Assembly (NCBI GenBank): GCA_052390515.1
Contig: JBQTGV010000106.1
Coordinates: 1-48,274 of the forward strand
Length of the DNA: 48,274 bases
Direction: 5' to 3'
Source: Candidatus Eiseniibacteriota bacterium
GTDB lineage: Bacteria > ARS69
Of the stretch, positions 2 through 45,262 are shown piece after piece. Within the stretch, counting starts at the first letter, position 1, and the number at the start of each line of letters is the position of its first letter. Position numbers and translations under genes: made by a program. The notes under the pieces are model-generated. The model saw only the letters and a program-made list of their open reading frames with translations. It was not told the origin of the DNA and searched no databases.

Positions 2-1627
2 GTGCTCAAGCTCGGCAAGTTCCGGATTCCTCTGAAGAAGCCGGAGCTCACTTCGCTTCGCCGGTCGAAGCCCTGGTGGACGATCCTCGGCGAGCACAAC
101 GTGTGGAGCACGGTGATCCGGGTCCCCATCACGTTTCCGCCCGACCGGTTCTACGGAGCGCAGCTGGGTGCCATGAGCATCCCGGATCTGCTCGGCACCC
201 AGGGGACGTTCCTGCTGTTCACCACGCGCAAGTCCGACGAGCGCTTCAAGGAAGGCGGCATCCGCGTGGCGCTCACGCGCAACGGCACGCCGGACTCCTT
301 CGACACCGTCATCCGTGGACCCGAGAACACGCTCGTCGAGGGGAACCCGACGCTGGAGATCCCCCTCGCCATCCGGCTCGACCGCGCGGCGAAGCGCGCG
401 CGGCTGCTGCTGAACGGGCAGAATCTCGATCTCGAGGCCGGCAAGCTCTCCGACTGGATCAAGCTCGAGTTCCCCGCGGCTCCCGGCGTGAAGATCTCCG
501 GTCTCTGCCGCATGATGGTCACCGAGCTGGACGAGCACTTCTCGCTCTACCTGACGCCGATCAGCATCGACCCGGAGAAGCCGGCGATGCCGATCTCGCA
601 TCCTTCGTACTACTCCACGTACCTGGCGAAGAAGGTCGGTCCGTACAGCACGATGGGACTCGCCGAGGACACCTGGGCGCTGAACGAGCGGGTCACGAAC
701 GACGCGGCCTTCTGGGAGCAGACCTTGGCGATCGACGACGAGCGCCGGCGGATGTTCTTCTCCGCGCTCGAGAAGCTCCGCTCGGGAGCGCTCGTCTGCG
801 TGTTCGACGGCGTCGACCGCGTGCAGCACATGTACTGGCGCTACGCGGAGGACGGCCATCCGGCGCGCGCGCGGAGCGAGAACGGAGCGCACGTCGGGGC
901 CATCGAGACGTACTACCGGCGTAACGACGAGCTCGTCGGAAAGGTCCGGGAGAAGATCCGCGAGGGAGACCTGCTGCTGGTGATCTCCGACCACGGATTC
1001 ACGTCGTTCCGGCGCGGTGTCAATTTGAACCGCTGGCTGCTGGACCAGGGCTATCTCGCGCTGAAGCCGGGCTCGGACGGCAAGAGCGAGTGGCTCCGCG
1101 ACGTCGACTGGTCGCGGACCAAGGCTTACGCCGTGGGGCTCTCGGGCATGTTCCTGAACGTGGAAGGTCGCGAATCGCAGGGCATCGTGAAGCCCGGCGC
1201 GGACGTGGAAGCGCTCAAGGCGGAGGTCGCCGCCAAGCTGCGCGGTCTGCGCGACGACGCGAAGAACGAGACGGGCATCAACGAGGCCTTCGACACGGCG
1301 AAGATCTACAATGGCCCGTACAAGGGAAACGCGCCGGATCTCTTGATCGGCTACAACCACGGCTACCGTGCCTCGTGGGACTGCGCCTCGGGCGTCGTGG
1401 CCGGCCCGGTCTTCGAGGACAACGTCAAGGCCTGGAGCGGCGACCACTGCGTCGATCCGCGGCTCGTCCCCGGCATCTTCTTCTGCAACCGGAAGATCAG
1501 CGCCACCGATCCGGCGCTGATCGACATCGCCCCGACGGCTCTCTCACTGTTCGGGGTCCAGCCGCCGGAGCACATGGAGGGTAAGCTGCTCTTCGACACG
1601 TCCACCTTCGAAGGCGCACGCGCGTGA
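2..1627 (+). CDS. AlkP-superfamily (type I phosphodiesterase/nucleotide pyrophosphatase-like) enzyme, 5'-truncated by the window edge
   Basis: Motifs DRVQH, ISDHGF, GNAPDLLIGY, WSGDHC and LIDIAPTAL. Clear paralogue of 1624-3690. Open from the window edge. Lacks the LGY tail. Confidence 0.85.
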   Translation: MLKLGKFRIPLKKPELTSLRRSKPWWTILGEHNVWSTVIRVPITFPPDRFYGAQLGAMSIPDLLGTQGTFLLFTTRKSDERFKEGGIRVALTRNGTPDSFDTVIRGPENTLVEGNPTLEIPLAIRLDRAAKRARLLLNGQNLDLEAGKLSDWIKLEFPAAPGVKISGLCRMMVTELDEHFSLYLTPISIDPEKPAMPISHPSYYSTYLAKKVGPYSTMGLAEDTWALNERVTNDAAFWEQTLAIDDERRRMFFSALEKLRSGALVCVFDGVDRVQHMYWRYAEDGHPARARSENGAHVGAIETYYRRNDELVGKVREKIREGDLLLVISDHGFTSFRRGVNLNRWLLDQGYLALKPGSDGKSEWLRDVDWSRTKAYAVGLSGMFLNVEGRESQGIVKPGADVEALKAEVAAKLRGLRDDAKNETGINEAFDTAKIYNGPYKGNAPDLLIGYNHGYRASWDCASGVVAGPVFEDNVKAWSGDHCVDPRLVPGIFFCNRKISATDPALIDIAPTALSLFGVQPPEHMEGKLLFDTSTFEGARA

Positions 1628-3690
1628 GACTCGCCGGCCTCGTTCCACAGCGCCAGAGCGCGGGACTCGCCGGCCGCGTACCGCTGGTCGCGCTCATCGC
1701 GGCGGCGCTGCTCGCCTTCGCCCCGACGAACGCGTCGGCCAAGAAGTTGATCGTGCTCGGCTTCGATGGGCTCGATCCGGACATCGTGCGGCAGCTCGTG
1801 GACGAGGGCCGCCTGCCCAACATGGCCCGTTTGGCGAAGGAGGGCGGCGGCCTGCACGATCTGGCCACGTCCATCCCACCGCAGAGTCCCGTGGCCTGGT
1901 CCAACTTCATCACCGGACTGGACAGCGGCGGGCACGGCATCTTCGACTTCCTGCACCGGGATGCGAAGACCTACATCCCGTACCTCTCCACCAGCAAGCC
2001 GATCGAGAGCGAGGAGGAGCCGTTCAAGCTCGGCGAGTACTGCATCCCCCGCGGCGCCGGCGGCTTCGAGCTCCTTCGCCACGGGACCGCCTTCTGGGAG
2101 ACGCTGGAGCAGAACGGCGTGCCCTGCATGATCGTGCGCATGCCGGCGAACTTCCCGGTTTCGGGCAAGGCGACGTACGAGCTATCCGGAATGGGGACGC
2201 CGGACGTTCGCGGCACCTACGGGACGTTCTCCTTCTATACGACCGATCACGCCGAGTTCGCCGGCAAGAACATCGGCGGCGGCAACGTCTACAACGTGAC
2301 GCTCGCCGGCGGACAGGCCACTTGCAAGCTGGAAGGGCCGATGAACCCGCTCCTCTGCAACGAGAAGAAGCGCGCGTTCGTCGAGTTCACCGTGGACGTC
2401 GATCCGGACGAGGACTGGGTGCTGCTCTCGCTCGAGGGCGAAGAGCACCTGCTCGGCGCGGGGGAGTGGACGGAGTGGCTGCCGATCGAGCTCCCCTTCG
2501 CGCCGAACGCGGCGCTCTCGCTCGTGGCACCGCCGGTCAAGGTGATGGCGCGGTTCTACGTGAAGCAAGTGCATCCGCACCTGAAGATCTACGTCTCGCC
2601 GATGAACTACGATCCCATGTACGCGACCGACGACTTCGCCAACCCGCCGTCCTTCGCCAGGGAGTTGGCCGAGGCCGCTGGGCGCTTCGCCACGCAGGGC
2701 ATGCCCGAAGACACCAAGGCGCTCGACGAGCACGTCTTCACCGTGGACGAGTTCCTGAAGCAGGCGGGGAACGCGGGGCAGGAGATCCTCGACGAGTTCC
2801 CCTGGGTGCTCGACAAGTTCCAGCGGGAGTTCCCCGACAAGGGCTGCCTCTTCTACTACACGGGAAACCACGACCAGATCGGACACATGCTCTACCGCAC
2901 GATGGATCCGAGCCATCCCACCTTCGATCCGGCCGTCCACGCGCAGTTCGGAGAGGTGATGCCGGGGATCATCGAGCGGCTGGATCAGCTCGTCGGCTAC
3001 GCCCTGGAGCGCATCGACGACGACACGACGCTGATCCTCATGTCCGACCACGGCTTCGCCAGCTGGCGCCGCGCGATGAACGTCAACTCGTGGCTCGCGT
3101 CCGAGGGATACCTCACGCTCAAGAACCCGAACATCGAGAAGGACCCGGGCTTCTTCCTCAACGTGGACTGGACGAAGACCCGGGCCTACGCGCTGGGTCT
3201 GAACGGCCTCTACGTGAACGTGCGCGGGCGTGAGGCGAAGGGCATCGTCCCGGAGTCGGAGCGGCGGGGACTCCTGGAGGAGATCGCCTACAAGCTGGTC
3301 CAGACGAAGGACCCCGAGACCGGACTGCAGGCCGTCTCCAAGGTGTACCTGTGCGAGGACAGTTTCCACGACCGCGGGCACCTGGACGTCGGGCCGGACA
3401 TCATCGTCGGCTTCGCCAAGGAGATGCGCTCGTCGAACCAGTCCGCGACGGGGACGATCCCGCCGGAGGTGTTCAAGAACTGCGACACGGAGTGGAGCGC
3501 GGATCACTGCATGGATCACACGGTCGTGGCCGGCGTGCTGATGTCCAATCGGCCGCTGGCGAAGCCGGCGCCCGCGCTGCAGAATCTCGCCGCGGCCATC
3601 CTCGCCGAGTTCGGCATCGGCGAGTTCCCCGGCGACGCCGAGAAGGATCTGAAGGCCGTCGGCTACATCGCCGCGACCGCGACGCACTAG
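1624..3690 (+). CDS. Secreted AlkP-superfamily phosphodiesterase/sulfatase-like enzyme with C-terminal KDLKAVGYI tail
   Basis: Signal peptide (..LLAFAPTNASA), VLGFDG, PPQSPVAWSNFITG (Ser nucleophile region), HGIFDF, MSDHGF, WSADHC. GTGA overlap with the upstream stop codon. Confidence 0.88.
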   Translation: MRLAGLVPQRQSAGLAGRVPLVALIAAALLAFAPTNASAKKLIVLGFDGLDPDIVRQLVDEGRLPNMARLAKEGGGLHDLATSIPPQSPVAWSNFITGLDSGGHGIFDFLHRDAKTYIPYLSTSKPIESEEEPFKLGEYCIPRGAGGFELLRHGTAFWETLEQNGVPCMIVRMPANFPVSGKATYELSGMGTPDVRGTYGTFSFYTTDHAEFAGKNIGGGNVYNVTLAGGQATCKLEGPMNPLLCNEKKRAFVEFTVDVDPDEDWVLLSLEGEEHLLGAGEWTEWLPIELPFAPNAALSLVAPPVKVMARFYVKQVHPHLKIYVSPMNYDPMYATDDFANPPSFARELAEAAGRFATQGMPEDTKALDEHVFTVDEFLKQAGNAGQEILDEFPWVLDKFQREFPDKGCLFYYTGNHDQIGHMLYRTMDPSHPTFDPAVHAQFGEVMPGIIERLDQLVGYALERIDDDTTLILMSDHGFASWRRAMNVNSWLASEGYLTLKNPNIEKDPGFFLNVDWTKTRAYALGLNGLYVNVRGREAKGIVPESERRGLLEEIAYKLVQTKDPETGLQAVSKVYLCEDSFHDRGHLDVGPDIIVGFAKEMRSSNQSATGTIPPEVFKNCDTEWSADHCMDHTVVAGVLMSNRPLAKPAPALQNLAAAILAEFGIGEFPGDAEKDLKAVGYIAATATH

Positions 3691-3712: not shown

Positions 3713-3910
3713 ATGTTCGGAGGGAACCGGATCAAGCTGGAGAAGGACCTGCTGGAGAAGGTGAAGAAGTACGCGGCCGTTGCCGGCTACTCCTCGCCGG
3801 AGGAGTTCGTGAAGCACGCCCTCGAGAAGGAGATCGCCTTGCTCGAGGAGGCCGGCGACGACGAGGCGGAGCTGAAGAAGCGGCTCCAGGGTCTCGGCTA
3901 CATCTCCTGA
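3713..3910 (+). CDS. Small ribbon-helix-helix (CopG-like) protein with acidic linker and KKRLQGLGYIS tail
   Basis: AAGGAG RBS upstream. Pattern beta(RIKL)-helix-GYSS-helix(EEFVKHAL) is RHH-like. Lies in operon context. Confidence 0.75.
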   Translation: MFGGNRIKLEKDLLEKVKKYAAVAGYSSPEEFVKHALEKEIALLEEAGDDEAELKKRLQGLGYIS

Positions 3911-3921: not shown

Positions 3922-4803
3922 ATGACGTTCGTGGTCCGACTCCTGGGTGGGATCGCCTTGCTCGGCGTGCTCGCGCTGCTGCGCGGCCCGGTGAACGCCG
4001 TCCTGCGAGTGCTGTTCGACGCGGTGCTGTTCCCGTTTCGAGGATTGCACCCGGTCGTCGGGCTCACCGTGCTGGCCGTGCCGTTCGCGGTGCTCGCGCT
4101 CGTGCTGTTCAAGGCCACGTCGGATCAGGCGGCGCTGGAGAAGATCAAGGCGAAGATCCACGCCGGGCTCTTCGAGATCCGGCTGTTCAACGACGACATC
4201 CGCGCGATTCTCCGCGCGCAGTTCGAGATCCTGGCGCACAACGGGCGGTACTTCCTGCAGAATCTGGTGCCGCTGCTCTGGATGATCGGGCCGTTCGTGT
4301 TCGTGATGGGACAGCTGCAGTTCCAGTACGGCTTCGAGGGACTCGCGCCGGGAGAGAGTGCCTTGCTCAAAGTGCAGCTGGCCGGGGAGAAGGCGGCGGC
4401 GCGACCGGATGCGGCGCTCACCGTGCCGCAAGGGCTGGAAGCGGAGACGTCGCCGGTGTGGTTCCCCGCGCGGAACGAGCTCGTCTGGCGGCTCGGAGCG
4501 CGAGCGGAGGGCAGCTACGACGTGCGCGTGAACGTCGGCGGCGAAGAGGTGACGAAGTCGGTGCGCGTGGGCGAAGGTCCCGCGCGGCGTTCGCCGCTGC
4601 GCGTGGCGCCGTCGGTGATGGACGAGATCCTGAACCCGGCCGAGGCGCCGCTGCCGAAGGCCGCCGGCATCGCCTCCATCTCGCTGGATTACCCCGAGGC
4701 CGGTGGGAGCTTCGCCGAGCTGTCGGCGTGGGTGTGGGCCTGGGTGGGTCTCACCATGGTGATCGCGTTCGCGCTGCGCGGGAAGTTCGGCGTGACGATC
4801 TGA
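3922..4803 (+). CDS. Membrane protein, DUF106/EMC3/TMCO1 (Oxa1-superfamily)-like N-terminal half plus a soluble beta domain and C-terminal TM
   Basis: Amphipathic helix, TM (HPVVGLTVLAVPFAVLALVLF), KATSDQ coiled coil, TM (LVPLLWMIGPFVFVMGQL), soluble region, final TM. GAGG RBS. Family call is by pattern only. Confidence 0.55.
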   Translation: MTFVVRLLGGIALLGVLALLRGPVNAVLRVLFDAVLFPFRGLHPVVGLTVLAVPFAVLALVLFKATSDQAALEKIKAKIHAGLFEIRLFNDDIRAILRAQFEILAHNGRYFLQNLVPLLWMIGPFVFVMGQLQFQYGFEGLAPGESALLKVQLAGEKAAARPDAALTVPQGLEAETSPVWFPARNELVWRLGARAEGSYDVRVNVGGEEVTKSVRVGEGPARRSPLRVAPSVMDEILNPAEAPLPKAAGIASISLDYPEAGGSFAELSAWVWAWVGLTMVIAFALRGKFGVTI

Positions 4804-5065: not shown

Positions 5066-5162
5066 AAGGAGTCGAAGGGCGTGGTGCATCCTCCTCCACC
5101 GGGGACGGACGGCCCGCCCAGTATGGCGCTGAGCGCGGGACCGCCCGCCCCGGGGAGGAGGC

Positions 5163-6703: not shown

Positions 6704-6808
6704 GAGAAGGGAGGAAGAACGACCTCCTGGGAAGCCCCAGGACGCGAGATCTCACCAGGGGGAGGCATCCTGCTATCCCCCCTTTTCCCCGCACCAGAGG
6801 AGGAACGG

Positions 6809-9781: not shown

Positions 9782-10166
9782 TGTGCTTCCTCGCTTGACC
9801 GGGGGACCGAGCTCGACCGGAATGACCCGACCTGCCCCGATCTGCCCCGGAAACCTTACCGGCGATGTACCGGCGGGTGACGGAGCGTCGGTGAAGAGGC
9901 GGTCCCGGAAGCTGTTGTGGGAGCAGAAGATCCGCTGGCGGCTGTCGTCCACCGGGCCCTTGCAGGCCCCACAAAACTGTACCGAAACCGCGAAATCGGC
10001 TCCGGCGGGTCAAATCTGGTCAGTTCGGGTCAGGGGGGCGACTGCGTAGATTGCGGAATCTACGACGTGGGAAGGGTCCCGCGTGTTGCGCGGCAGGGGC
10101 CGACTCAATAGGCTCGTGGCCGAGTGTCAACGGACGGTTCCGGTTGCCTACGTCACGCGGAGGGGC

Positions 10167-11810: not shown

Positions 11811-11963
11811 CCGGCAGGGCTCGAAGTGAGCGTGTCGGTGATGAACGGCCACATTCCGCAGGTGAGACCGAACTAGCCACGCACTGGAGGGAGGGGCACG
11901 TCGAGTCTTGGCGAAGCGCTCACTAGCGGCAAATCTCCCACCTCGCAGCCGGACGGTCGCCTC

Positions 11964-14900
11964 GTGACTGCCGATTCTCCAGGTTCCCGACACTTGATCA
12001 TCACCGTACACGGCATCCGCACGTTCGGTGAGTGGCAGGAACGCTTCGAGTCGCTGCTGCGTTCATCGAGTGTCGTGCCAGACGTGATTCACTACAAGTA
12101 CGGTTTTGTGTCAGTGCTGGCCATTGTGGTCCCCTTGTTCCGTTGGTTAGCCGTTCGTCGATTCCGCCGCTCGCTAGTGTCTCTGCTGCGATCTCGCGAA
12201 TGGGACCGAGTAGACGTTGTCGCGCACAGCTACGGCACCTTCATCGTTGCATGGACGCTGCACGAACTGAGAAGGGACAAGTCGCTGCCAGCGATTCACA
12301 CGTTCATTTGCGCCGGGAGCGTACTGCGCTCCACCTTTCCTTGGGACGCAATTCTGAGCACGCGATTGTACCGTCTCGTGAACGAGTGCGGCCTGCGGGA
12401 CGCGGTTCTTCTGGCAAGCCAGTTCTTCATTCCGTTTCTCGGGATGGCCGGTCGAATCGGATTCACTGGGATAACTGGGGATCGCATTCGCAATCGGTTC
12501 TTTCGATTTGGTCACGGTGGCTACTTCTCGTCACACGATGGTGGCGACCGAGACCAATTCATGCGACAGCACTGGCTTCCGCTTCTTCAGAGTGATGCCG
12601 CGATTCCTGTCATTGACGAGCGTGCCGGTACGCTGATCGAGGGCTACGCCACCCTTCTCGCCAGGAATGCTGACCCGATCAAACTGGTGGCCTTCGCAGG
12701 GATACCGGTTCTCGCGTGTCTATACGTCACCCACCTGTACCTGGAGTCTGAACGCTTGCGGCGCGTCGATGTCGCGGAGCGTCTGGCGAGTGCTGCGTTT
12801 AGCATGCAGATTCAACCCCCTCATGACCGCTTCGACTTCGCCAGTTCCAGAATGCACTCGCTTCATCTCGCCGTGCTTTCCGAGCGTCTGTCGCCGAACC
12901 CGATCGCCAGTTCTGTTCTCTGGACGGCGATTCAGGGACAGCCTGAGATTCGCCACCGGCTTGTACATGACGGTCCTGTACGCGGTGTCGCATTGAACGG
13001 AGCGGGGACTCTACTCGCAACGTCTTCGGCAGCGGGCACCCTGCGGATCTGGGATCTCTCTCGCGGGGAGATGCTTTCAAACTTCGGCGTGGGCCACGCA
13101 ACCTCCAACATCGCACTCAACAGAAGTGGTTCCGCGGTTCTGGAGGTCGACGAATCAGGCGTCCTCCAGATCTGGGACGTCTCCACACGAGAGCTGCAGG
13201 CTAAGTTTGCCTACGATAGCAAGGATGGCTTCGTGGCACTAAGCGCAAACGGCCGGCATGCCGCGTTTTCCGGACGCGACCTTGTGCTGCTCGATGTCGG
13301 TGAGGGGAGGATAATTCGGGCCGTGGAACGCTGCTGGTTCAGCTCTGGTGAGTTTACCTCCGACGGTCGCACTTTCGTCGCAAGACGTCGAGCCGCGCAT
13401 TCCGTGCATGTCTTCACCGGTTCACAATTCGAGAGAGATCGAGAGGTCCAGCTTCCCGAGTATAGGCGGCTGTGGGTCTCTCCGCAGGGCGGCTACGTCG
13501 CAAGTTATCTAAGCACTAAGGGAGGCCCGACCGAGCTCTCGGTGACAGAACTGACCTCGGGCGAGGCGACTCAGACCCTGTTGCCGCCGACGCACGCCTC
13601 GCCAGGGCCCGTGGTGGCGTGGTCGAACGATGAAACGACGCTTGCCGCGGCGGCTGGGACGGTTCTTCGGATCCTCGACTTGCGCACAGGTCGCGCCCAG
13701 GAGGCGGAGGTCGAGTCCAGGATCCGCGCTATTGACTTCCTGGACGAGACAGCAAGTCTAGTCACGGCAGATTCCGATGGCACTGTGATGGTACGACAGT
13801 TGAGCGACCTTCGAGAGAGTGCACGCATATACCTTGACGCACAGGTGGCAGAGCTTCAAGCCTTGGAGGGGCCGCCTCGTATACTTGTTTCGAACTCTCA
13901 GTTCTCGGCACATCTCGTCACTATCTGGGATCTCGAACTCCGCGGACGTACAACCCTCCGTTGTGGCCTGGGATTCCGGACTATGCGGCTATCACCGGAC
14001 GGGTCACTTGTCGTGGCGGCGGCCGGCGACACTCTCGTTGGCATGGACAGGGACGGACGCCAGCTGTGGACGGCACCAGAGAGCGGTGTCAAGTGGATCA
14101 CCTTCTCCCGATGTGGCACATGGTTTCTGGCTTGTACTGAGGATGGACAGACCCGGGTACGAGACGCGCGCTCGGGTCGCACTCTGTCGTCGCTGGTTGC
14201 CCAGCGCGAAGTCTGCGCGTGCTTGGCACTCGATGCAACCTCGTATGCATTGGGATTGAGCGACGGGGTCATTGAGATTCGCGACGCGGTGACGGGCTCT
14301 CTCTTGGCGACGGCACGGGACGACACGGTCGTGGAAATCCGCGATATTGATGAGGGGGAGGCGGTCGTGTCATCGACGACCGTGGTGTCCGCGGTTCGCC
14401 ATCTCGCGGTGTCAGCAAACGGCAGTCGGCTGGCTTCTGGACACGATACTGGTACGGTGATCGTGTGGGACCTTCCAAATCTCCGGGAGCTACGTCGCGT
14501 CTATCCCGTCGTTGGGAGCGATCTCGTCTCACTCGCCCTCAACCCGACCGGCTCCGTAGTCGCGGCAGGGGTGAGCGGAACGGTTAGTCTATTCCACGTT
14601 CCCACCGGCATCCAGTATGGACGGATCAGGTCCGGAGATGTGGACATGGTCTGTCATCCGAGTAGGTGGCGCATCGCAGTCGGAATGGGGAAGGACAACA
14701 CACTTAATGCGGGGATCTACTCGTTGATTACAGGCAGGCTACTTGTAGACCTCAGGGACGGAGGAGGCGGCCCACATAAGCTCTGCTTCGATCCTCAAGG
14801 TCGGTACATTGTTGGCGTTCAGAGCGCCCACCCTGCAACGCTCCAGCTGCGTTCGGCCGAGAGCGGCAGGGTGCTTGCTGCTTACGAGTTCCCTTCAGAG

Positions 14901-20379: not shown

Positions 20380-20490
20380 GCCGGAGGTCGGTGTGGTCAA
20401 GTTCACTTGACCGTTGCCGAGGGTCGTCCCTCCTTGCCCGACGCCGGGCCGAGCCCCTATGATCGCCGGTCCCCGAAGGCGGAGTGACGG

Positions 20491-21573
20491 ATGAGGATCG
20501 GGATCGTCGGGCTTCCCGGAGCGGGCAAGTCGACGCTGTTCAACGCGGTGACCCAGGGCAAGGCGGAGACCGGGCACTTCGGCGGCCAGGGCCAGGTCCA
20601 CCGAGGCCGCGTTCTCGTGCCGGACCCGCGCCTGGACTGGCTCGCCGAGCACTACCACCCGAAGAAGACGACCCCCGCCACGGTGGAGTTCCTGGACGTT
20701 CCCGGGCTCAAGCCCGGCTCGACGGAGAAGGGGTCCGCGGCGCTGCTCGCCGATCTTCGCACGGTGGATGCGCTGCTCGAGGTGGTCCGCGTCTTCGACG
20801 ACCCGTCCGTGCCGCATCCCGACGGGAGCATCGACCCGGCGCGGGATGCCGACCACCTCGAGACCGAGCTGCTGCTCGCCGACCTCGTGGTGGTGGAGAA
20901 GCGCCTGCAGCGCGTCGAGTCGGATCTGGGCAAGGGCGTCGACAAGAAGAACCTCGAGCCGGAGCGCGAAGTTCTGCTGAAGCTGAAGGGCGCGCTCGAG
21001 GAGGGAAGGGCGGCGCGCGCGGTCCCGCTCGCGCGGAACGACGAGCAGCGCATCCGCGGCTACGCCCTGCTCACCCGCAAGCCGAAGATCCTCATCGGCA
21101 ACGTGGGCGAAGACGACCTCGCCGGCGGCGAATCCGACCGCGCGCTCGCCGCGAAGGCCGAGGCGGACAGCGTCCCGTACCTGCGCATCTCCGCGAAGAT
21201 CGAGGCGGAGATCGCGCAGATGGAGGCGGCCGACGCCGCGCTCTTCCTGGGCGAACTGGGGATCGAAGAGCTCAGCCGCGATCGGGTCGTCCGCGCCGCC
21301 TTCGACACGCTCTCGGTGATCTCCTTTCTAACGTTCGGCGAGGACGAGTGCCGCGCGTGGACCCTGGCGGACGGCTCGGACGCGGTCGAAGCGGCCGGCA
21401 AGATCCACTCGGACATCGCGCGGGGGTTCATCCGCGCCGAGGTGGTCGCGTTCGACGCGCTGCAGGGCGCCGGATCCTGGAATGCGGCGAAGGAGGCCGG
21501 CAAGCACCGCCTGGAAGGCAAGGAGTACCGCATGCAGGACGGCGACTGCGTGATCTTCCGGTTCAACGCGTAG
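20491..21573 (+). CDS. ychF: YchF-like Obg-family ATPase (divergent)
   Basis: [65 protein letters not shown]. Confidence 0.9.
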
Positions 21574-23339
21574 TGTGGGCGGCGGCGCTGCTCGCTGCGG
21601 CGGCCTACGCGCTGCTGGAGCTCGCTTTCGTCGCGGAGCGCAACCTGCTCCTGCCCTGGAAGGGTGAGCATGCGTCGCTCGGCGTCCTGTTCTTCGCCAT
21701 CCACGGCGCTGTGGCCCTCGCCGCCCTGCTCGCCGCTCGTCTCGTGTTCCGGCCGGCCGTCCCCTTCGCTCCCGCGGCGGTGCTTCTGGCCATCCATGCC
21801 GTGACCGCCTTCCGGGAGCGCTCCGGCGTTCTCCCCCGCGATGTCGCCGGCACGCTCGTGACCGCAGGAATCCTCGTCAGCGTCCTCGGCGCGGCGGGCG
21901 TCCTCGGCTGGCTACTCCGTGCCCGGCCGGAGCGGGCGGCGAGGCTCGGAGTGGCGACCGGCGTCGTGCTGCTCGCCGCCGGCGCTGTCCGCATGGCGAC
22001 GGTGCGGCCGCCCGCGGAGGCCGTTCCTTCGCCTCCTCGCCCGGCGTCCGAACCGCTCGTCGCCGCGGAGACCGGCCAGCGCGTCTTCGTCTTCGGGTTC
22101 GACGGGGCTGCCTGGGACGTGCTCGATCCCATGATGGCGGCCGGCGAGCTGCCGCATCTCGCTGCGCTCGCGGCCCGCGGTCGTACGTTCGCCGTGGAGA
22201 CGATCAGTCCGACGTTCTCCCCAGTCATCTGGACGACCGTCGCGACGGGGACGGACCGCCTCGCGCACGGGATCCACGACGTCGTGCAGACGGTGATGCC
22301 GGGAGGCGTGCGCCTGCCGCGGTCCATCGCGCGCACGGCGTTCCTGACCAAGACGACCGGCGTGCTCTTCCGCGGCCTGGACCGGCGCCGACTGCTGGGC
22401 TCGGCCCCCTACCGGAGCAATGACGTTCGCACCGCATCCGTGTTCGAGGCCGCCTCTGAGGCCGGTCTGTCCACGTCCCTCATCGAGTGGTACGTGACGT
22501 GGCCCGCGGTGCCGCTCTCCGGCGTGACGGTGTCGGACCGCTTCCACCTGCGAGACGCCCAGGCGGACTTGCCGGGCCTCGTGCATCCCGCGGGCCTGCA
22601 GGCGGCGCTCGCGCCGCACGTCGTGGACGCCGAGACGATCCCGCTCCTGGACGTCCTCGATCTGGTGGACCTCTCCGGACTCGACGAGACCGGGCAGGCG
22701 AAGTGGGTCTCGGAGCACGCGCGCTTCGTGCGGGAGATGAGACTGAACCTCGCGCGGGACCGGACCACGCGCAACGTCGCCGTCGATCTGCTCTCTCGGG
22801 ACTCGGAGTGGAAGCTGTTCGCCGTCTACTTCCGGGCGGTCGATCTCTCACACCACCTCGCCTGGCGTTTCCACCGCGGCGAAGGCGGCGAGCGCGAGCC
22901 CCTGCGCACCGCGGTGCGGCGCTATCACCGGATGATGGACGACATCGTGGGCGAGGTCCTCGCCAAGGTGCCCGAGGGGACGACCGTGCTCCTGCTCTCC
23001 GACCACGGGTTCGAGGACGTCTTCGACCATCGCCGCGGACCCGACGGCGTCGCCATCCTCGCCGGTGGCGCGACCGCTCCGTCGACGCGGCGGGACCGCA
23101 TGTCCGTGTACGACGTCGCGCCGACGCTCGGAGCCGTTCTCGGGCTGCCCGCCGCGCGGGACCAGCGCGGCGTGGTCCGCGGAGAGTGGCTCGTCCCGGG
23201 CTTCCTCGAGGCGCACGCGGTGCCGCCGGTGGCCACGTGGCTACGGGAGGATCGCGCCCTGCCCACGGAAGGGGGGGACGCCGAGGTCGTCGAGGCCGAG
23301 GAACTGGAGCGGCTGCGCGCTCTCGGTTACATCGAGTAA
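21573..23339 (+). CDS. Membrane-anchored AlkP-superfamily enzyme (N-terminal TMs) with C-terminal [12 protein letters not shown] tail
   Basis: GTG start overlapping the ychF stop (TAGTG). About 5 TMs, then [38 protein letters not shown]. Confidence 0.88.
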
Positions 23340-37400: not shown

Positions 37401-38138
37401 TTAGTCGGCGGTCCGGAGAGTCCGCACCAGGAAGTCGACGATCGTGCCGGGGAGCGCGGGATCGTGCTCGAACAGCGGCACGCCGTGCAGGTCGCTTTTG
37501 TAGAGCACGAGCCGGCTCTTGTCGTGCCGCGAGTTCGCGAAGAGCTGCCGCGTCCGGTCCAGCGCCTGCTCGTCGCCGTCCGCGGCGATGCCGAGCAGGG
37601 GAACGTCGCGGGTCCTCTCGAATACGGCGATGTCTTCGGAGCCGATCCACGGAAGACTGGACGAGAGGAACACGAGCGCCCTGACCGACTCGTTCCGGGA
37701 GGAGAGGAGCAGCGCCTGGCTCCCGCCGCAGCTCGCCCCGACGGCGCCGATGCGCGCGGAATCGACGTGCGGCAGGGAGATCAGGAAGTCCATGGCGCGG
37801 TCGACGTCGCCTTCGTAGAGCGGCCAGAGCGCCTCGCCCTGTTCACGGAAGCTCGCCGCGCCCTCGCCCTCGCCGAAGCCGCGGAAGTCCAGCGCCAGCA
37901 CGTGCAGGCCGGCGCCGGCGAGTTCCCGGGCCAGCGCGTCCCAGGAGCCCCGTTCCCGGTTGCACTGGTGCAGCAGCAGGACGCCCGGGCCGGGTGCCGC
38001 CGCTTCCCAGTATGTGGCGCGCAGCGTGAAGCCGTCCGGCGCGACGATGTCGACGTCCACGTCGGTCAGCTCGGCGGAGGCGGTGAGCGGGGCGAGGGCG
38101 AAGAGCCCGAAGGCGGCGGCGAGGATGATCCGGCGCAT
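37401..38138 (-). CDS. Secreted alpha/beta hydrolase (dienelactone hydrolase-like)
   Basis: Signal peptide, VLLLH, DFRGFG, VGASCGG, AADGD, LHG. Confidence 0.88.
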   Translation of the reverse strand: MRRIILAAAFGLFALAPLTASAELTDVDVDIVAPDGFTLRATYWEAAAPGPGVLLLHQCNRERGSWDALARELAGAGLHVLALDFRGFGEGEGAASFREQGEALWPLYEGDVDRAMDFLISLPHVDSARIGAVGASCGGSQALLLSSRNESVRALVFLSSSLPWIGSEDIAVFERTRDVPLLGIAADGDEQALDRTRQLFANSRHDKSRLVLYKSDLHGVPLFEHDPALPGTIVDFLVRTLRTAD

Positions 38139-39760: not shown

Positions 39761-40978
39761 TCAATCTGCGGCCCGGGCCGCGACCGTACCCGGCAGGGCG
39801 CTCTCCGTCGGGTCTCCCACCACGGCGGCGAAGAGAACGGCGCGCGACGGCCGGTGCACGACGAGGAAGGCGAAGGGGTGATCGGCGCGGAGCACGGGCG
39901 GTGCGTCGTCCGGTCCGGAAACGTAGCCCAGCGCTCGCACCTCGACGCGAGTGATCGCCTCCGCCTTGGTCCCCGTCTCATCCACGCGGAGCGATACGGC
40001 CTGCTGCGCCCTGCCGAGGAACAGCGTGTCCGGCGAGATTCCGAGGAAGTCTGCAGTCCGGGGAATCCATGCATCCCGGATGCCCACCGCCTCGAGCATG
40101 GGCCGGCCGTGAATTGCGTCCAGGAAATCGAAGCGCGGGAGCGCAACTTCGACAGCGCGCTCGCGCCCCGCGTCGAGGATCTCGCGGATCGGTCGGGCGC
40201 CGGTCCGTATCAGAACGTCGACGGGCGGCTCGCCGCTTCGCGGCAGTAGCACGACGGCGCAGAGGTCCGGATTATCGTAGGGCAGGCGAACCACCTGCCA
40301 CTCGTCGCTCTCGAGGTACGTGGCGGTCGGCGAAGCGTGCATGAGCTGAACAGACACGGAGTCACCCGCTGCGCGGCGGAACGGCGCGTCGGCGGTTCCT
40401 TCCAGGGGGAACGGCGTCCGCCACGTGCCCGCGAACCGGTTGACATTGACGACCACGATCGCGGTGAGAACGTCGACGCTCCAGTCGATGAGCGATGCGA
40501 CGGGCATCTCCAGACCCTCGCTCGCCCAGGACTTCATCTCCTCGGGATCGAGTCCCCGCTCGAGACGGGCGTGGTACCGAGTAGAGGCAACGCTCTCGAA
40601 CGCCGGCTCGAGCCTGAGCCTCTCGCCCACCCAGGCGCAAGTCCTCGACGTCCAGCCCACCGCGGGGAAGCTCGCCGCCGACTCGGCCGGCGCGCGCCGT
40701 AGAGCATGCTCCAGCTCGTCGCGGGTCCTCCCGCGCGCGCCCTCGGCGAGCAGCCCGAGCGTCTCGCTCCATCCGTGCGGACAGAGCACCGCGTTCCCGC
40801 GCGGGCTGAGCGCGGCGTGCTGCAGCAGGGAGACGGCGAAGTCGAGGTTCTCGACCAGGGGAGCCCGTTCGACTGCCGGCGGCGCGGCGCCGGCAGCGGC
40901 CCGGGGTTCCTGCTTCGGCGAATCGTTGCAGCCCGCCAGAAGAAAGCCGCTGAGAATAGCCACGGACGCGCGGCGCAT
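39761..40978 (-). CDS. Serpin-family lipoprotein (serine protease inhibitor)
   Basis: Lipobox LAG|C, N...P, GARG.T..EL, VN...F.G.W..PF, T...PF, LPY, V.LPRF, ADF.GI, hinge VDETGTKAEAIT, signature ADHPFAFLV..LF. Alternative coupled GTG start at 41008. Confidence 0.92.
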   Translation of the reverse strand: MRRASVAILSGFLLAGCNDSPKQEPRAAAGAAPPAVERAPLVENLDFAVSLLQHAALSPRGNAVLCPHGWSETLGLLAEGARGRTRDELEHALRRAPAESAASFPAVGWTSRTCAWVGERLRLEPAFESVASTRYHARLERGLDPEEMKSWASEGLEMPVASLIDWSVDVLTAIVVVNVNRFAGTWRTPFPLEGTADAPFRRAAGDSVSVQLMHASPTATYLESDEWQVVRLPYDNPDLCAVVLLPRSGEPPVDVLIRTGARPIREILDAGRERAVEVALPRFDFLDAIHGRPMLEAVGIRDAWIPRTADFLGISPDTLFLGRAQQAVSLRVDETGTKAEAITRVEVRALGYVSGPDDAPPVLRADHPFAFLVVHRPSRAVLFAAVVGDPTESALPGTVAARAAD

Positions 40979-41004
40979 GGGGCTCGCTTTCGTGGCGCTC
41001 TCCG

Positions 41005-42882
41005 TCACTGCCCCACGTACCCCAGCGCGCGGAGCTGCTCCAGGATCTGCTCGTCCGCAGCCGCGTTCTCGGCCGTCGCTCGTGCTTCTCTCGGCGCCTC
41101 GTAGGACGGCACCGTGCGGATCGGGAACCGCTCCCAGAACGCGGGGTCCACCAGCTCGCGCGCGACCCGCCCGTCCATGTCCTCCGGCACCGGGATGCCC
41201 AGCAGCGCAAGCACCGTCGGCGCGACGTCGTACACCGACACCGCGGCGCGCTCCCGCGATGCGATGACCGGCCCGCCGGCCATGACGAAGAACCCGTCCG
41301 GCTTGCGCGCGTGCGCCCACTGCGTGTCCTCCCAGCCGTGGTCGGAGAGCGCGATCACCACCGTGGCGCTGTCCGCGTGCTGCAGGGTTCGCTCCAGCAG
41401 CCCGTCGCAGAACGCGTTGTAACTGTCCACGACGGATCGCAGCCGCTGGCCGCGCGCCGACGCGGCGGCGTCGGGCGGGAGGTCGCGGTACTTCCAGGTC
41501 ACGTGGTGGGACCCGTCCATGCCGCGGTAGTAGACGGCGCCGAGCTGCCAGTCCGGCACCTGGGCGAAGGCCGCCGGCACGATCCCCGCCGTCGTCAGGT
41601 CGCGGGACATCTCCGCGGCGAGCGTGCGGAACTCCTCGGGGAAGCTGCGCTTCAGCTCTTCGCGGCCGGCCGCGTCCAGGTCGCCGACTTCCGCCATCGC
41701 CACGACGCGGTCCATCACGTCCGCCGGCCTCACGAGGAACGGCTCCAGCACGGGCGCGAGGCTGTCGGGATGCACCGCCGTGCGCAGCGCGTCCCCCTCC
41801 AGCAGGTGGAAGCGGTCGGAAACCTGGACTCCCAGCACGGGCTCGACCGGATGGGTGACGTACCACTCCAGGCCGACGAAGCGCATCCCGAATCCCTCGA
41901 CGATTTCCCACAGCCGCCGCGTCCTCACGTTGCCGGACGCGTAGAGACCGAGCGGGAGCAGCCCCGCGCGATCGGCGAGGCGCACGTCCAGCTTGAGCAT
42001 CTTGGTGAGGTGCCGGAACTGCCGCGGCATGTGCGGGACAGGCGGCAGCCCGAGCGGCATCCGGGTGAACACGTGGCTGGAGACGCCGTGCTTCTCCAGC
42101 GTCTTCCCGCTGGCGATGCTCGTCCACAGGTTCGGCGAGTACGTGGGGATGATCGACTCCAGCCGCGCGGTGACGCCGCGTTCGGCCAACCCCGTGAGCG
42201 CCGGCATGCGCCCGGACTCGAGCAGCGGGTCGAGAACGCTCCAGGATCCACCGTCGATGCCGACGATCAGGACGCGAAGCCCCGTGTCGGGAACCTCGCC
42301 GACCTGATCCGGCGTGACGTACTCCGCGGGACTGCTGTCCGGCGCAGCGCCGTTGGCCACGAGCGCGACGACTCCGACGGCCAGGGCCAGCAGCCCGGTT
42401 CCGCGGAGCGTGCGCAGGGTCGCGGCGGCGGGGCGGTACGAGGCGGCGCGCGTCGCCAGGAGCAGGGCGAGTCCCCACACCGGGAGCGCCGCCGCGGTGA
42501 CCACGTTCATCGTCGGGCGCGTGTGCACGAGCGTGTGATCCCGATAGAGCGACACGGCCAACACGAAGAGGAGAACCGCCGGCGCCGCGAGAACCGTGAC
42601 CGCCGCCCCGACCGGACGCCACCGCCCCACGAGAGCGCCCGCCAGGGCGGCGCCGGACGCCAGCAGGCCGAACTGCGCCACCAGGATCACCCACAGCACG
42701 GCATGGGCGGGTCCGACCGGCCAGGACTCGTTCGCCGGAATGAACCAGGCGAGCTCGGCCGTGGCGAACGCGAGGGCCCAGACCCAGCCCACGCCGAGGG
42801 CGGCGCCCAGGCCCGTCCCGCTCCAGGATTCGTGCGTTCTTGCGGGGGAGGCGCTCATCGGGCCGAGCCTATCACGGAGCAT
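41005..42882 (-). CDS. Membrane-anchored AlkP-superfamily enzyme (paralogue of 21573-23339) with C-terminal LEQLRALGYVGQ tail
   Basis: About 5 TMs, IVGIDG, PTYSPNLWTSIASG, DGSHH, LSDHGW, YDVAPTVL..DMDGR. Start may be 42858. Confidence 0.9.
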   Translation of the reverse strand: MLRDRLGPMSASPARTHESWSGTGLGAALGVGWVWALAFATAELAWFIPANESWPVGPAHAVLWVILVAQFGLLASGAALAGALVGRWRPVGAAVTVLAAPAVLLFVLAVSLYRDHTLVHTRPTMNVVTAAALPVWGLALLLATRAASYRPAAATLRTLRGTGLLALAVGVVALVANGAAPDSSPAEYVTPDQVGEVPDTGLRVLIVGIDGGSWSVLDPLLESGRMPALTGLAERGVTARLESIIPTYSPNLWTSIASGKTLEKHGVSSHVFTRMPLGLPPVPHMPRQFRHLTKMLKLDVRLADRAGLLPLGLYASGNVRTRRLWEIVEGFGMRFVGLEWYVTHPVEPVLGVQVSDRFHLLEGDALRTAVHPDSLAPVLEPFLVRPADVMDRVVAMAEVGDLDAAGREELKRSFPEEFRTLAAEMSRDLTTAGIVPAAFAQVPDWQLGAVYYRGMDGSHHVTWKYRDLPPDAAASARGQRLRSVVDSYNAFCDGLLERTLQHADSATVVIALSDHGWEDTQWAHARKPDGFFVMAGGPVIASRERAAVSVYDVAPTVLALLGIPVPEDMDGRVARELVDPAFWERFPIRTVPSYEAPREARATAENAAADEQILEQLRALGYVGQ

Positions 42883-44155: not shown

Positions 44156-45262
44156 ATGTCGCCGTTCCTCCGTCTCGTGCGGCTGCTGCTGGTCGTCGTG
44201 CTCGTGCTCGCCGCGGTCGCGCTGTGGCAACGCATCCGGACGCCGCGCCTCGACCGCGACGCGCCGCCACGCCCGGTCACCGCGCGCGGGGATCTGGCCT
44301 CCGACGAGCAGGCCACGATCGAGCTGTTCCGCGAGGCATCGCCGGCGGTCGTGTACATCACGAATATCGCGCGGCGGCGGAACCGCTTCACGCGCAACGT
44401 CACCGAGATCCCCCAGGGAACCGGATCGGGTTTCGTGTGGGACCGAGAGGGTCACATCATCACGAACCTGCACGTGATCGAGGGCGCGAGCGTCGCCACG
44501 GTCACGCTCTCGGACAACAGCACCTGGGACGCGGACCTCGTCGGCGAGGCCCCCGATCACGACCTCGCCGTGCTGCGGATCGAGGCGCCGCAGGAGCTGC
44601 TCGTCCCGATTCCCGTCGGGCGCTCCAACGATCTCCTCGTCGGGCAGAAGGTCTTCGCCATCGGGAACCCCTTCGGGCTCGATCAGACGCTCACGACCGG
44701 CGTGATCAGCGCGCTCGGACGGGAGATCACCGCGCAGACCGGGCGAACGATCTCGGGCGTCATCCAGACCGACGCGGCGATCAACCCCGGCAATTCCGGT
44801 GGGCCGCTGCTGGACAGCGCGGGCCGCCTCATCGGCATGAACACGCTGATCCTCAGCCCCTCCGGCGCGAGCGCGGGGATCGGCTTCGCCGTGCCCGTGA
44901 ACACCATCAACCGCGTCGCCACGCAGATCCTGCAGCACGGGCGCGTCATCCGTCCGGGCCTCGGCGTGCAGATCGCCGACGACACCGCCGCGCGGCGGCT
45001 CGGGCTCGACGGAGTGCTCGTGTTCTCGGTCGCGGAGGGGAGCGCGGCGGAAGCCGCCGGACTTCGGGGAACGACGCGCGACCAACGCGGTCGGCTCGTT
45101 CTCGGCGACGTGATCGTCGAGGTCGGCGGCGATGACGTCTCGAATGCCGACGACCTGGCCAACGCGCTGGAGAAACGCGAGGTCGGCGACGAGGTCGACC
45201 TGACCGTGGAACGCGACGACAAGCGCCGGACGGTCTCGGTCACGCTGCAGGAGATACGCTGA
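44156..45262 (+). CDS. HtrA/DegP-family (S1C) serine protease, single PDZ, N-terminal membrane anchor
   Basis: GTGSGFVW, ITNLHV (His), DLAVL (Asp), IQTDAAINPGNSGG (Ser), C-terminal PDZ (GDVI). Confidence 0.95.
   Translation: MSPFLRLVRLLLVVVLVLAAVALWQRIRTPRLDRDAPPRPVTARGDLASDEQATIELFREASPAVVYITNIARRRNRFTRNVTEIPQGTGSGFVWDREGHIITNLHVIEGASVATVTLSDNSTWDADLVGEAPDHDLAVLRIEAPQELLVPIPVGRSNDLLVGQKVFAIGNPFGLDQTLTTGVISALGREITAQTGRTISGVIQTDAAINPGNSGGPLLDSAGRLIGMNTLILSPSGASAGIGFAVPVNTINRVATQILQHGRVIRPGLGVQIADDTAARRLGLDGVLVFSVAEGSAAEAAGLRGTTRDQRGRLVLGDVIVEVGGDDVSNADDLANALEKREVGDEVDLTVERDDKRRTVSVTLQEIR

What the first reader, a model, noticed from the sequence alone, without database searches (positions are those of the whole stretch)
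39761..42882. Serpin whose bait loop copies the C-terminal RALGYV tag of its upstream neighbour: candidate tag-processing protease/decoy-inhibitor system
Seen: the AlkP-family membrane enzyme (41005-42882) ends ..LEQL-RALGYV-GQ* (nt 41014-41031). The next gene in the operon is a lipoprotein serpin whose reactive-centre loop reads E-T-G-T-K-A-E-A-I-T-R-V-E-V-R-A-L-G-Y-V-S, with RALGYV at nt 39920-39937. The two DNA copies differ at three synonymous third positions (cgc/cga, ggg/ggc, gtg/gtt), so the match is at protein level rather than a recent copy. Established: counting from the hinge Glu as P17 puts P3-P3' at R-A-L|G-Y-V. The buried even positions (T14, A12, A10, T8, V6, V4, A2) fit an inhibitory serpin, and serpin RCLs mimic the substrate of their target protease. 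Inference: the LxxLGY tail, whose function I do not know to be described, is cleaved at Leu|Gly by an envelope protease or transpeptidase, and this serpin is its dedicated suicide decoy.
Basis: partly seen in the sequence, partly recalled or inferred. Interest (0 to 1): 0.92.

Follow-up and report, generated by a model that had tools for sequence, protein, structure and literature searches.

The report
Serpin bait loop copies enzyme tail motif
A membrane-anchored bacterial protease inhibitor carries, at its cutting site, the core of a short "LGY" motif that also ends dozens of exported phosphatase/sulfatase-like enzymes, which points to an undescribed protease or docking partner that reads this motif.

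Summary
RALGYV sits at the stated coordinates in both genes. It is the core of a conserved tail, [DE]..E.L[RE][AS]LGY[VI]x-stop. The tail ends 28 AlkP-superfamily enzymes in this genome, occurs in all 12 genomes of the phylum, and is invariant in distant metagenomic homologues. The motif is portable. It lies before fused TPR domains, at the N-terminus of some homologues, in the linker of an arylsulfotransferase-like protein, and at the end of a conserved 65-aa protein without a signal peptide.

Six serpins from at least two lineages carry the motif core in the reactive-centre loop, with its Leu/Ile at residue 16-18 from the hinge Glu (P1 ±1). A motif HMM ranks them as the top six of 352 serpin loop strings.

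Best reading (about 0.4): an inhibitory lipoprotein serpin that traps a serine protease cutting or recognising Leu|Gly in the motif. No protease was identified. The AlkP-serpin adjacency was not seen elsewhere. The helix-plus-cap pattern and the carrier without a signal peptide favour a rival: LGY as a docking helix for a non-protease reader. Interest is high and the mechanism is open.

The parts
41005..42882 (-). AlkP-superfamily enzyme (P0001, 625 aa). It has five N-terminal membrane helices, a Phosphodiest-type catalytic domain, a variable linker and an LGY tail.
   Evidence: ORF. Pfam PF01663 1.8e-17. AlphaFold2 model, mean pLDDT 89.2, with helices 17-43, 50-78, 84-109, 115-140 and 144-168. 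Hydropathy.
41008..41055 (-). LGY tail motif of the AlkP enzyme: DEQILEQLRALGYVGQ, followed by the stop codon.
   Evidence: Sequence. L, G and Y are invariant in 31 homologues of 22-85% identity. The model shows helix 599-611 (pLDDT block 601-610 = 84) followed by non-helical LGYVGQ.
39761..40978 (-). Serpin gene (P0002, 405 aa). It starts 26 nt after the AlkP stop on the same strand.
   Evidence: Pfam Serpin 4.7e-52. Only serpin match in the genome. AF2 model with mean pLDDT 84.9. Its best Foldseek matches are solved serpins, many of them titled latent or cleaved.
40928..40939 (-). Lipobox L-A-G-C (residues 14-17) of the serpin signal peptide.
   Evidence: Read from the translation. No signal-peptide predictor was run.
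39872..39979 (-). Reactive-centre loop with its anchors, Glu334 (P17) to Phe369. The motif core V-R-A-L-G-Y-V occupies P4-P3'.
   Evidence: Hinge count and alignment to 6ee5. Motif-HMM score 8.8 bits, third of 352 loop strings. In the model, residues 336-349 form a strand with pLDDT above 90 and 352-365 have pLDDT below 50.
39926..39931 (-). Predicted scissile pair Leu350|Gly351 (P1|P1').
   Evidence: Seventeen residues from hinge Glu334. The modelled inserted strand ends at Ala349.
3713..3910 (+). A 65-aa RHH-like protein without a signal peptide. It ends ..KKRLQGLGYIS*, the same tail on a different kind of protein.
   Evidence: ORF and Shine-Dalgarno-like AAGGAGAGG. RHH_1 E=0.018, below the cut-off. 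Found in 12 of 12 genomes of the phylum at 71-83% identity. Found in 3 of 31 sampled genomes of another phylum.
1624..3690 (+). Signal-peptide AlkP enzyme just upstream of the small gene. It has a variant tail, ..AEKDLKAVGYIAATATH*.
   Evidence: Pfam Phosphodiest 4.6e-28. Tail-bearing AlkP frames lie beside the small gene in 8 of the 11 other loci of the phylum.
3922..4803 (+). A 293-aa multi-pass membrane protein of no known family. It follows the small LGY gene in every locus examined.
   Evidence: No Pfam or NCBIfam match. tblastn matches at 28-51% identity in 14 of 14 other loci.
20484..23339 (+). A further AlkP-type gene in the window, ending ..[12 protein letters not shown].
   Evidence: PF01663 match at 22083-23033.
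44156..45262 (+). HtrA-like serine protease with a PDZ domain. It is the nearest candidate target by position only.
   Evidence: Pfam Trypsin_2 1.8e-34 and PDZ_2 1.3e-14. It is one of five such genes in the genome. In G011, none lies near the serpin.
37401..38138 (-). Alpha/beta-hydrolase with a signal-peptide-like start. It is the last gene of the same-strand run AlkP-serpin-proS-hydrolase.
   Evidence: Pfam Abhydrolase_1 5.3e-13, Hydrolase_4 3.2e-9 and Peptidase_S9 6.6e-5. The only terminator-like site on this strand lies after it, at 37366-37351.

Best explanation
The gene at 39761-40978 encodes an inhibitory serpin anchored to a membrane by a lipid. Its bait loop presents the core of the LGY motif, (L/V)-(R/K)-(A/S)-L-G-Y-V, at positions P4 to P3'.

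The same motif, on a flexible linker, ends about 28 membrane-anchored or lipoprotein AlkP-type enzymes of this organism, including the gene just upstream.

The most likely working is this. A serine protease of the cell envelope recognises the motif and cuts it between Leu and Gly. When it attacks the serpin loop it is trapped as an acyl-enzyme and dragged across the serpin. The serpin would therefore limit processing or degradation of LGY-bearing enzymes.

Shown here: the match, its recurrence in other serpins, its position at P1 ±1, and the features expected of an inhibitory serpin.

Inferred: that any protease reads the motif, where it cuts, and what cutting achieves.
For: 1. The loop matches the motif far beyond chance. 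A motif HMM built without any serpin ranks six serpins as the top six of 352 loop strings. None of the roughly 84 genuine loops among the 90 strings from 80 genome loci holds an LGY-like word, and none of the other representatives does.

2. The match recurs. Three of five members of one well-supported clade carry it (SH-like support 96). So do two of three close relatives of P0018. So does G011's serpin, which the tree places elsewhere.

3. In all six, the Leu/Ile of LGY lies 16, 17, 17, 17, 18 or 18 residues from the hinge Glu. That is where a scissile bond must lie (counted; register). Clade members without GY still keep Leu at 16 or 17 (P0008, P0221).

4. The hinge reads E-T-G-T-K-A-E-A, with small residues at P14, P12, P10 and P8. 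The AF2 model puts residues 336-349 into a strand at pLDDT above 90, ending just before Leu350. Its best Foldseek matches include many latent or cleaved serpins.

5. The match covers P4-P3', the usual footprint of a protease cleft. Serpin loops resemble the substrates of their targets (PMC8233489, passages read; other examples recalled).

6. Serpin and carriers share a compartment. The serpin has a lipobox. A lipobox-like word was found in 10 of the 22 frames that one search listed.

7. Candidate proteases exist: 5 HtrA-like and 14 S8 matches in the genome.
Against: 1. No protease is linked to the serpin. The nearby HtrA gene has no counterpart near G011's serpin.

2. Ten of the 12 genomes of the phylum have the tails but no LGY-loop serpin. 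None was found in 206 and 151 genomes of two other phyla, and one genome of the first, G062, has the tails.

3. The AlkP-serpin adjacency was not seen in 16 metagenome loci with AlkP relatives.

4. The motif also ends a conserved small protein without a signal peptide. It also lies at the N-terminus, before the membrane block, of 4 of 63 homologues. An envelope protease alone cannot explain these.

5. The conserved positions L(-9), L(-6), L(-3), G and Y, the larger helical than strand hydrophobic moment and the modelled helix 599-611 are the pattern of an amphipathic helix with a cap. They are not the pattern of an extended cleavage site.

6. Cutting 4-5 residues off a protein has no obvious use.

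7. With the full 15-residue HMM, the window's serpin frame is not among the 70 best of 929 genome-wide matches (lowest listed score 4.2 bits). Scored as an isolated loop string it reaches 8.8 bits.
Confidence: 0.4

Rival explanations
1. LGY is a portable docking helix read by a non-protease partner. Candidates are a TPR domain, the conserved 280-290-aa membrane protein next to the small LGY gene, or an export or assembly chaperone. The serpin displays the motif in its reactive loop because that is the one exposed segment of a serpin that tolerates any sequence. The serpin would then be a client of, or a competitor for, that reader. Its protease target would be unrelated to the tails.
For: - The motif is portable. 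It is C-terminal in 39 of 63 AlkP homologues by pattern, plus 4 by eye.
- It is internal, directly before a Gly-rich linker and TPR repeats, in 15 of 63, and N-terminal as well in 4 of 63.
- It lies in the linker of an arylsulfotransferase-family protein.
- It ends a 65-aa RHH-like protein without a signal peptide that is present in 12 of 12 genomes. That gene is always followed by the same membrane protein (14 of 14 other loci).
- The conservation is helical and cap-like. L, G and Y are as invariant as the catalytic residues.
Against: - The Leu/Ile sits at P1 ±1 in both serpin lineages, which a mere display loop would not require. Roughly 3 of about 10 possible placements fit, and this happened twice.
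- No reader was identified.
- Readers would be needed on both sides of the membrane.
- I know of no serpin that uses its loop as a docking tag (recalled).
Confidence: 0.27
2. The tail is simply the last structural element of this AlkP subfamily, a helix that packs in cis on its own catalytic or membrane domain. Nothing reads it. The serpin resemblance then has another cause.
For: The modelled tail helix has a fairly high pLDDT (block 601-610 = 84) after a weaker linker (block 591-600 = 66). The motif co-varies in presence with the AlkP fold (28 of 28 terminal copies are on AlkP-type frames).
Against: - The same motif occurs on an arylsulfotransferase-like protein, on a 65-aa RHH-like protein and at N-termini.
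- It follows a linker that is variable in sequence: most common residue 14-27% at most linker positions against 100% for L, G and Y.
- Solved sulfatase homologues end before it.
- It leaves the six serpin loops unexplained.
- I could not inspect contacts in the model.
Confidence: 0.1
3. The invariant tyrosine is the point. The motif is a pseudo-substrate or a modification site (O-sulfation, phosphorylation or nucleotidylation of Tyr) for the very enzyme families that carry it, which handle aryl esters. The serpin loop Tyr at P2' would be modified to switch inhibition.
For: The carrier families are sulfatase/phosphodiesterase-like and arylsulfotransferase-like. Tyr is invariant in every alignment. 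The link to aryl-ester chemistry is inference from the family names only.
Against: - There is no evidence of modification.
- It does not explain the RHH-like carrier or the helical pattern upstream.
- The sulfatase-type carriers I read (L110, L111) have Thr where true sulfatases have Cys/Ser-x-P-x-R (the signature is recalled).
Confidence: 0.06
4. Coincidence. This is an ordinary P1-Leu serpin aimed at subtilisin-, elastase- or HtrA-type proteases, and its loop merely resembles a common motif built from residues favoured in a genome of 70% G+C.
For: R, A, L, G and V are abundant residues here. LRALGYV also occurs by chance in the frame I take to be RpoB.
Against: The expected frequency is about 5e-6 per loop. 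Six serpins are the top six of 352 loop strings. The tree suggests two separate origins.
Confidence: 0.05

Closest known systems
Inhibitory serpins whose loop mimics the natural substrate of the target (recalled examples: antithrombin, PAI-1, viral CrmA, furin-directed Spn4A)
   Same: Serpin fold, inhibitory-type hinge, a 17-residue distance from hinge to P1, and a loop sequence matching a motif present in many endogenous proteins.
   Different: The target is unknown. The mimicked sequence is a helix-cap tail motif shared by dozens of paralogous enzymes, not a known cleavage site. The inhibitor is a bacterial lipoprotein.
Characterised prokaryotic serpins (miropin, thermopin, tengpin, siropins, chloropin)
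   Same: Bacterial serpins, often with export signals. Their physiological roles are called 'relatively enigmatic' (PMC8233489, passages read).
   Different: None of those I know of (recalled), and none of the search listings, links the loop to a motif of the organism's own proteins. Identity to solved serpins here is about 19-26%.
C-terminal sorting signals cut by sortase-type enzymes (LPXTG, PEP-CTERM, GlyGly-CTERM; recalled)
   Same: A short conserved C-terminal motif on many exported proteins of one genome. In the sortase case an acyl-enzyme step would be involved.
   Different: Those signals are followed by a membrane helix and basic residues. The LGY tail stops 0-4 residues after Tyr, with exactly 2 in 23 of 28 copies. 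It also occurs internally, N-terminally and on a protein without a signal peptide.
Short terminal peptides read by TPR or PDZ domains (PTS1-PEX5, EEVD-Hop, OMP YxF-DegS; recalled)
   Same: A short motif on a flexible linker at a fixed distance from the chain end. TPR repeats are fused directly behind the motif in 15 of 63 homologues.
   Different: In most of the 28 tails the last residue is polar or charged (E, Q, R, D, H; one ends in Leu), not hydrophobic. No binding was tested.

Membership tests
Serpin superfamily (Pfam PF00079) | Full-length match to the family profile | tested here: met
   E = 4.7e-52, 177.9 bits, profile positions 3-370 of 370. Foldseek probability 1.00 to many solved serpins.
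Inhibitory serpins | Hinge P17-P9 close to E-x-G-T-E-A-A-A-A, with small residues at the even positions | tested here: met
   The hinge reads E-T-G-T-K-A-E-A-I. The consensus is quoted from PMC8233489. P13 Lys, P11 Glu and P9 Ile depart from it at odd positions only.
Inhibitory serpins | Scissile bond about 17 residues after the hinge Glu | tested here: met
   Leu350 is residue 17 from Glu334. The alignment to 6ee5 keeps the hinge in register.
Inhibitory serpins | The loop can insert into sheet A | tested here: inconclusive
   The AF2 model has residues 336-349 as a strand at pLDDT above 90, and many of its top matches are latent or cleaved serpins. This is a prediction, not a measurement.
Inhibitory serpins | SDS-stable covalent complex with a protease | not testable with these tools
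   This needs protein biochemistry.
Bacterial lipoproteins | Signal peptide ending in a lipobox, L-[AS]-[GA]-C | tested here: met
   MRRASVAILSGFLLAGC. This was read by eye and no predictor was run.
Alkaline-phosphatase superfamily (PF01663 / PF00884) | Profile match and conserved metal-binding and nucleophile positions | tested here: met
   PF01663 1.8e-17. D202, T246, D448 and D485 are invariant in 31 homologues, and H452 and D506 are nearly so. The roles of these residues are recalled, not tested.
Sortase / exosortase-type C-terminal sorting signals | Motif followed by a hydrophobic helix and a basic tail | tested here: not met
   The tails end 0-4 residues after Tyr.
PDZ ligands / tail-specific protease substrates | Hydrophobic residue at the C-terminus | tested here: not met
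   In most of the 28 G000 tails the last residue is E, Q, R, D or H; one ends in Leu. The rule is recalled, and some PDZ domains differ.
Ribbon-helix-helix proteins (for the 65-aa LGY carrier) | Match to an RHH profile above its cut-off | tested here: inconclusive
   RHH_1 E = 0.018, 15.4 bits against a cut-off of 20.5. NikR and aCcr1 matches are weak.

The most novel reading that the evidence does not exclude
LGY is an undescribed, portable recognition tag of a lineage of environmental bacteria. It consists of an amphipathic helix and a Gly-Tyr cap on a flexible linker.

It marks a whole regulon of exported phosphatase-, sulfatase- and sulfotransferase-like enzymes, and also a small DNA-binding-like protein.

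A dedicated serine protease or transpeptidase reads the tag and opens it at Leu|Gly. Some members of the lineage have evolved a lipoprotein serpin whose bait loop is a copy of the tag, which throttles that enzyme.

This would be the first bacterial serpin with a defined endogenous substrate class.
Probability: 0.2. Interest if true: 0.9.

Novelty: new variant of a known kind. Interest (0 to 1): 0.74.

Why it matters
The physiological targets of prokaryotic serpins are largely unknown (PMC8233489, passages read). Here a serpin loop points to a concrete class of about 30 endogenous proteins, which makes the question testable with a peptide, a pull-down and a gel.

The LGY motif itself also matters. 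It is as conserved as the active site. It is present on several unrelated protein types and, going by the names that sources give the homologues, in more than one phylum. The searches found nothing about it. It therefore looks like a missing piece of envelope biology in poorly studied lineages, whether its reader is a protease, a TPR scaffold or a membrane protein.

Tried and rejected
**Complex prediction never ran.** Neither pair was tested.

I could see confidence and secondary structure, not contacts, so I could not tell whether the tail docks in cis.

As a result the source organisms and neighbourhoods of P0018, P0027, P0220, P0222 and P0008 are unknown. The 87-88% identical AlkP orthologues P0158 and P0159, on contigs of 46 and 36 kb, could not be fetched.

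**Searches that gave little:**
- The first metagenome scan with P0001 found nothing.
- The genome-contig scan with the serpin alignment was swamped by ordinary serpins, because it used a generic pattern. I used those 80 loci only as background.
- The word-based search with P0002 gave only 4 distant hits.
- One search failed on a parameter ('of' needs a G handle). I corrected it through.

**Ideas rejected:**
- Recent gene conversion from a tail into the serpin. Shared DNA is at most 18 of 19 nt and confined to the motif.
- HtrA as the target on grounds of position. There is no HtrA near G011's serpin.
- A Tat-type signal as a common feature. The RR count was uninformative: 10 of 37 lipobox-like starts.

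**Literature.** Motif strings, LGY with sulfatase and COG3379 gave nothing relevant. Supplementary files were not consulted.


Full report
**1.
The minus strand carries an ORF at 41005-42882 (625 aa, P0001) that ends ..ADEQILEQLRALGYVGQ*. Twenty-six bases downstream lies an ORF at 39761-40978 (405 aa, P0002) that starts MRRASVAILSGFLLAGC. It contains ..VDETGTKAEAITRVEVRALGYVSGPDDAPPVLRADHPFAF...

RALGYV lies at nt 41014-41031 and at nt 39920-39937. The two copies differ at three synonymous third positions.

Pfam gives Phosphodiest (1.8e-17) for the first protein and Serpin (4.7e-52) for the second. This is the only serpin match in the 4.27-Mb, 70% G+C genome.

No terminator-like site separates AlkP, serpin, proS and a secreted-looking alpha/beta-hydrolase. 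The only one on that strand follows the hydrolase (consensus scan only).

**2. The tail is a family-wide motif, not a private feature of the neighbour.**
- In six-frame segments of at least 150 aa, 23 of 363 LGY tripeptides lie exactly two residues before a stop.
- Listing all LGY within 8 residues of a stop in segments of at least 100 aa gives 36 rows. Of these, 28 share the consensus E.L[RE][AS]LGY[VIL]x(0-4)*.
- By coordinates, all 28 lie in frames matched by PF01663 or PF00884.
- A DNA pattern for LGY[VI]x-stop hits 7-24 times in each of the 12 genomes of the phylum, against 0-2 for the reversed control.
- It hits 9 times against 2 in one genome of another phylum (G062). It is near background in four others.

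I also read the C-termini of 63 database homologues of the catalytic part of P0001.
- 39 end in the motif by pattern, and 4 more by eye.
- 15 have it internally, directly before a Gly-rich linker and TPR repeats.
- 5 lack it, and one of those ends mid-motif and looks cut short.
- Four also carry a copy at residues 12-25, before the membrane block.

L, G and Y are invariant in alignments of 31 sequences (22-85% identity) and of 15 TPR-fused sequences, on a par with the catalytic positions. The 20 or so residues before the motif are variable and poor in hydrophobic residues (0.19 against 0.34 in the body). Solved sulfatase homologues end before the tail.

**3. The motif is portable.**
- It occurs in the linker after the N-terminal hydrophobic segment of an arylsulfotransferase-family protein (G000 C73).
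- It ends a 65-aa gene in this window (3713-3910). That gene has its own Shine-Dalgarno-like site, no signal peptide, and a sub-threshold ribbon-helix-helix match.
- The small protein is single-copy in 12 of 12 genomes at 71-83% identity, and L, G, L, G and Y of its ..RL.GLGYIS end are invariant.
- It is present in 3 of 31 sampled genomes of G062's phylum.
- In the window it follows a signal-peptide AlkP gene; tail-bearing AlkP frames lie beside it in 8 of the 11 other loci of the phylum. It is followed by a 280-290-aa membrane protein of no known family in 14 of 14 other loci.

**4. The serpin loops.**
No close orthologue of P0002 was found. The best hit is 39% identical (P0008). However, several distant serpins carry the motif core in the loop.

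| Serpin | Loop segment | Source call |
|---|---|---|
| P0002 | VRALGYV | 5 |
| P0156 (G011, same phylum, 32% identical) | GLALGYV | 16, 19, 30 |
| P0018 | MLKSLGYV | 25 |
| P0027 | TLRSIGYV | 25 |
| P0220 | ELRTLGYA | 51 |
| P0222 | LLRSIGYV | 51 |

- A FastTree of 118 single-domain serpins puts P0002, P0008, P0147, P0018 and P0027 in one clade (SH-like support 96) and P0156 elsewhere. The tree is quick and has long branches, so two origins are likely rather than proven.
- Within the clade, P0008 (KLGVVEYV), P0147 and P0221 (HTLSEE) lack GY.
- For background, none of the 90 strings from 80 genome loci (about 84 of them genuine loops) holds an LGY-like word. Nor do the other representatives.
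- An HMM of the 15-residue motif, built from 57 windows of metagenomic AlkP homologues, scores 352 serpin loop strings. The top six are the six above (10.4, 10.2, 8.8, 5.4, 4.3, 4.0 bits). The next best is 2.9 and all others are <= -0.1.
- A DNA pattern for GYV..ADxPF hits only G000 and G011 among the 12 genomes. It hits none of 206 and 151 genomes of two other phyla.

**5. Register and inhibitory character.**
Counting from the hinge Glu, the Leu/Ile of LGY is residue 16 (P0156), 17 (P0002, P0220, P0027) or 18 (P0018, P0222). P1 is residue 17 in alpha-1-antitrypsin, and the alignment to 6ee5 keeps the hinge in register.

The AF2 model of P0002 has mean pLDDT 84.9. Residues 336-349 (P15-P2) form a strand at pLDDT above 90, and residues 352-365 are below 50. 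Many of its best Foldseek matches are latent or cleaved serpins. The predictor therefore chose the loop-inserted state, with the strand ending just before Leu350. This fits an insertion-competent loop with P1|P1' at Leu|Gly. It is a prediction only.

**6. What reads the motif?**
For a protease:
- Serpin loops resemble target substrates.
- The match spans P4-P3' and sits at P1 ±1 in both lineages.
- The serpin and many carriers are lipoproteins or membrane-anchored enzymes.
- The genome has 5 HtrA-like, 14 S8 and 5 S41 matches. One HtrA-like gene lies 1.3 kb from the operon.

Against a protease:
- No HtrA lies near G011's serpin, whose neighbours are an M2 peptidase and an unknown membrane protein.
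- No serpin lies beside AlkP relatives in 16 metagenome loci.
- Ten of 12 genomes have the tails without such a serpin.
- The motif occurs on a protein without a signal peptide. In homologues modelled with five membrane helices, it would occur on both sides of the membrane.
- The spacing L(-9), L(-6), L(-3), then Gly, then Tyr matches an amphipathic helix closed by a Schellman-type cap (recalled). The helical hydrophobic moment exceeds the strand one (1.24 against 0.88). The model shows helix 599-611 followed by non-helical LGYVGQ.

I therefore keep two leading readings: protease bait at about 0.4 and docking helix for a non-protease reader at about 0.27. Minor ones are given under rivals.

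**7. Comparison with what is known.**
The protein is a member of the serpin family and has the features of the inhibitory class that can be checked in silico. The tail fails the defining features of sortase-type signals and of classical PDZ ligands.

The searches found no description of the motif or of this AlkP subfamily. In PMC8233489 I read passages only. In the listings I read titles and abstract starts only.

**8. Verdict.**
The finding is real and statistically solid, and it is broader than reported. What is new is twofold:
- a serpin lineage whose bait loop copies an endogenous, widely shared linear motif;
- the motif itself, which no search here found described.

Noticed in passing
window 1624-4803 (+): A conserved three-gene unit. 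A signal-peptide AlkP enzyme ends ..LKAVGYIAATATH*. A 65-aa RHH-like protein ends ..RLQGLGYIS*. A 293-aa membrane protein of no known family ends ..FALRGKFGVTI*. The small gene and the membrane gene are paired in all 15 loci seen, from two phyla.
   Followed up: partly
window 4985-7549 (+): Two ORFs (572 aa and 246 aa) right after that unit. By eye they look like an IS21-type transposase and its ATP-binding helper. The resemblance is recalled and no family search was run.
   Followed up: no
window 37401-38138 (-): A secreted-looking alpha/beta-hydrolase with weak S33/S9 peptidase-family matches. It is the last gene of the same-strand run AlkP-serpin-proS-hydrolase, before the only terminator-like site. 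It is a serine hydrolase close to the serpin, but not of a fold that serpins are known to inhibit (recalled).
   Followed up: partly
G000 C64:20228-27588 (locus L113): A 919-aa protein with a borderline Peptidase_S41 match (24.4 bits, cut-off 24). Its end overlaps the start of an LGY-tailed sulfatase-like gene, which is followed by a second one. S41 is the tail-specific protease family.
   Followed up: partly
G000 C73:16906-18270 (-) (locus L112): An arylsulfotransferase-family protein. It carries [13 protein letters not shown] in the linker between its N-terminal hydrophobic segment and the catalytic domain.
   Followed up: partly
L008 (G001 C4), ORF 1492-2229 (-): A truncated serpin-like ORF (245 aa) in a genome of the same phylum. 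Its loop reads ..GEADLRAQLQALGGLDLEPV... It resembles the motif but has Gly for Tyr, and charged residues in the hinge.
   Followed up: no
L115 (G011 C8) 9490-14378: The G011 serpin with the LALGYV loop lies between an angiotensin-converting-enzyme-type (M2) peptidase gene and a 537-aa protein with no family match. In the nucleotide read-out it begins with hydrophobic stretches.
   Followed up: partly
loci L110 and L111 (G000 C104, C62): The 'sulfatase' paralogues I read have Thr where true sulfatases have the Cys/Ser of the C/S-x-P-x-R signature (the signature is recalled). They are probably phospho- rather than sulfo-ester enzymes. Both have lipobox-like signal peptides.
   Followed up: no
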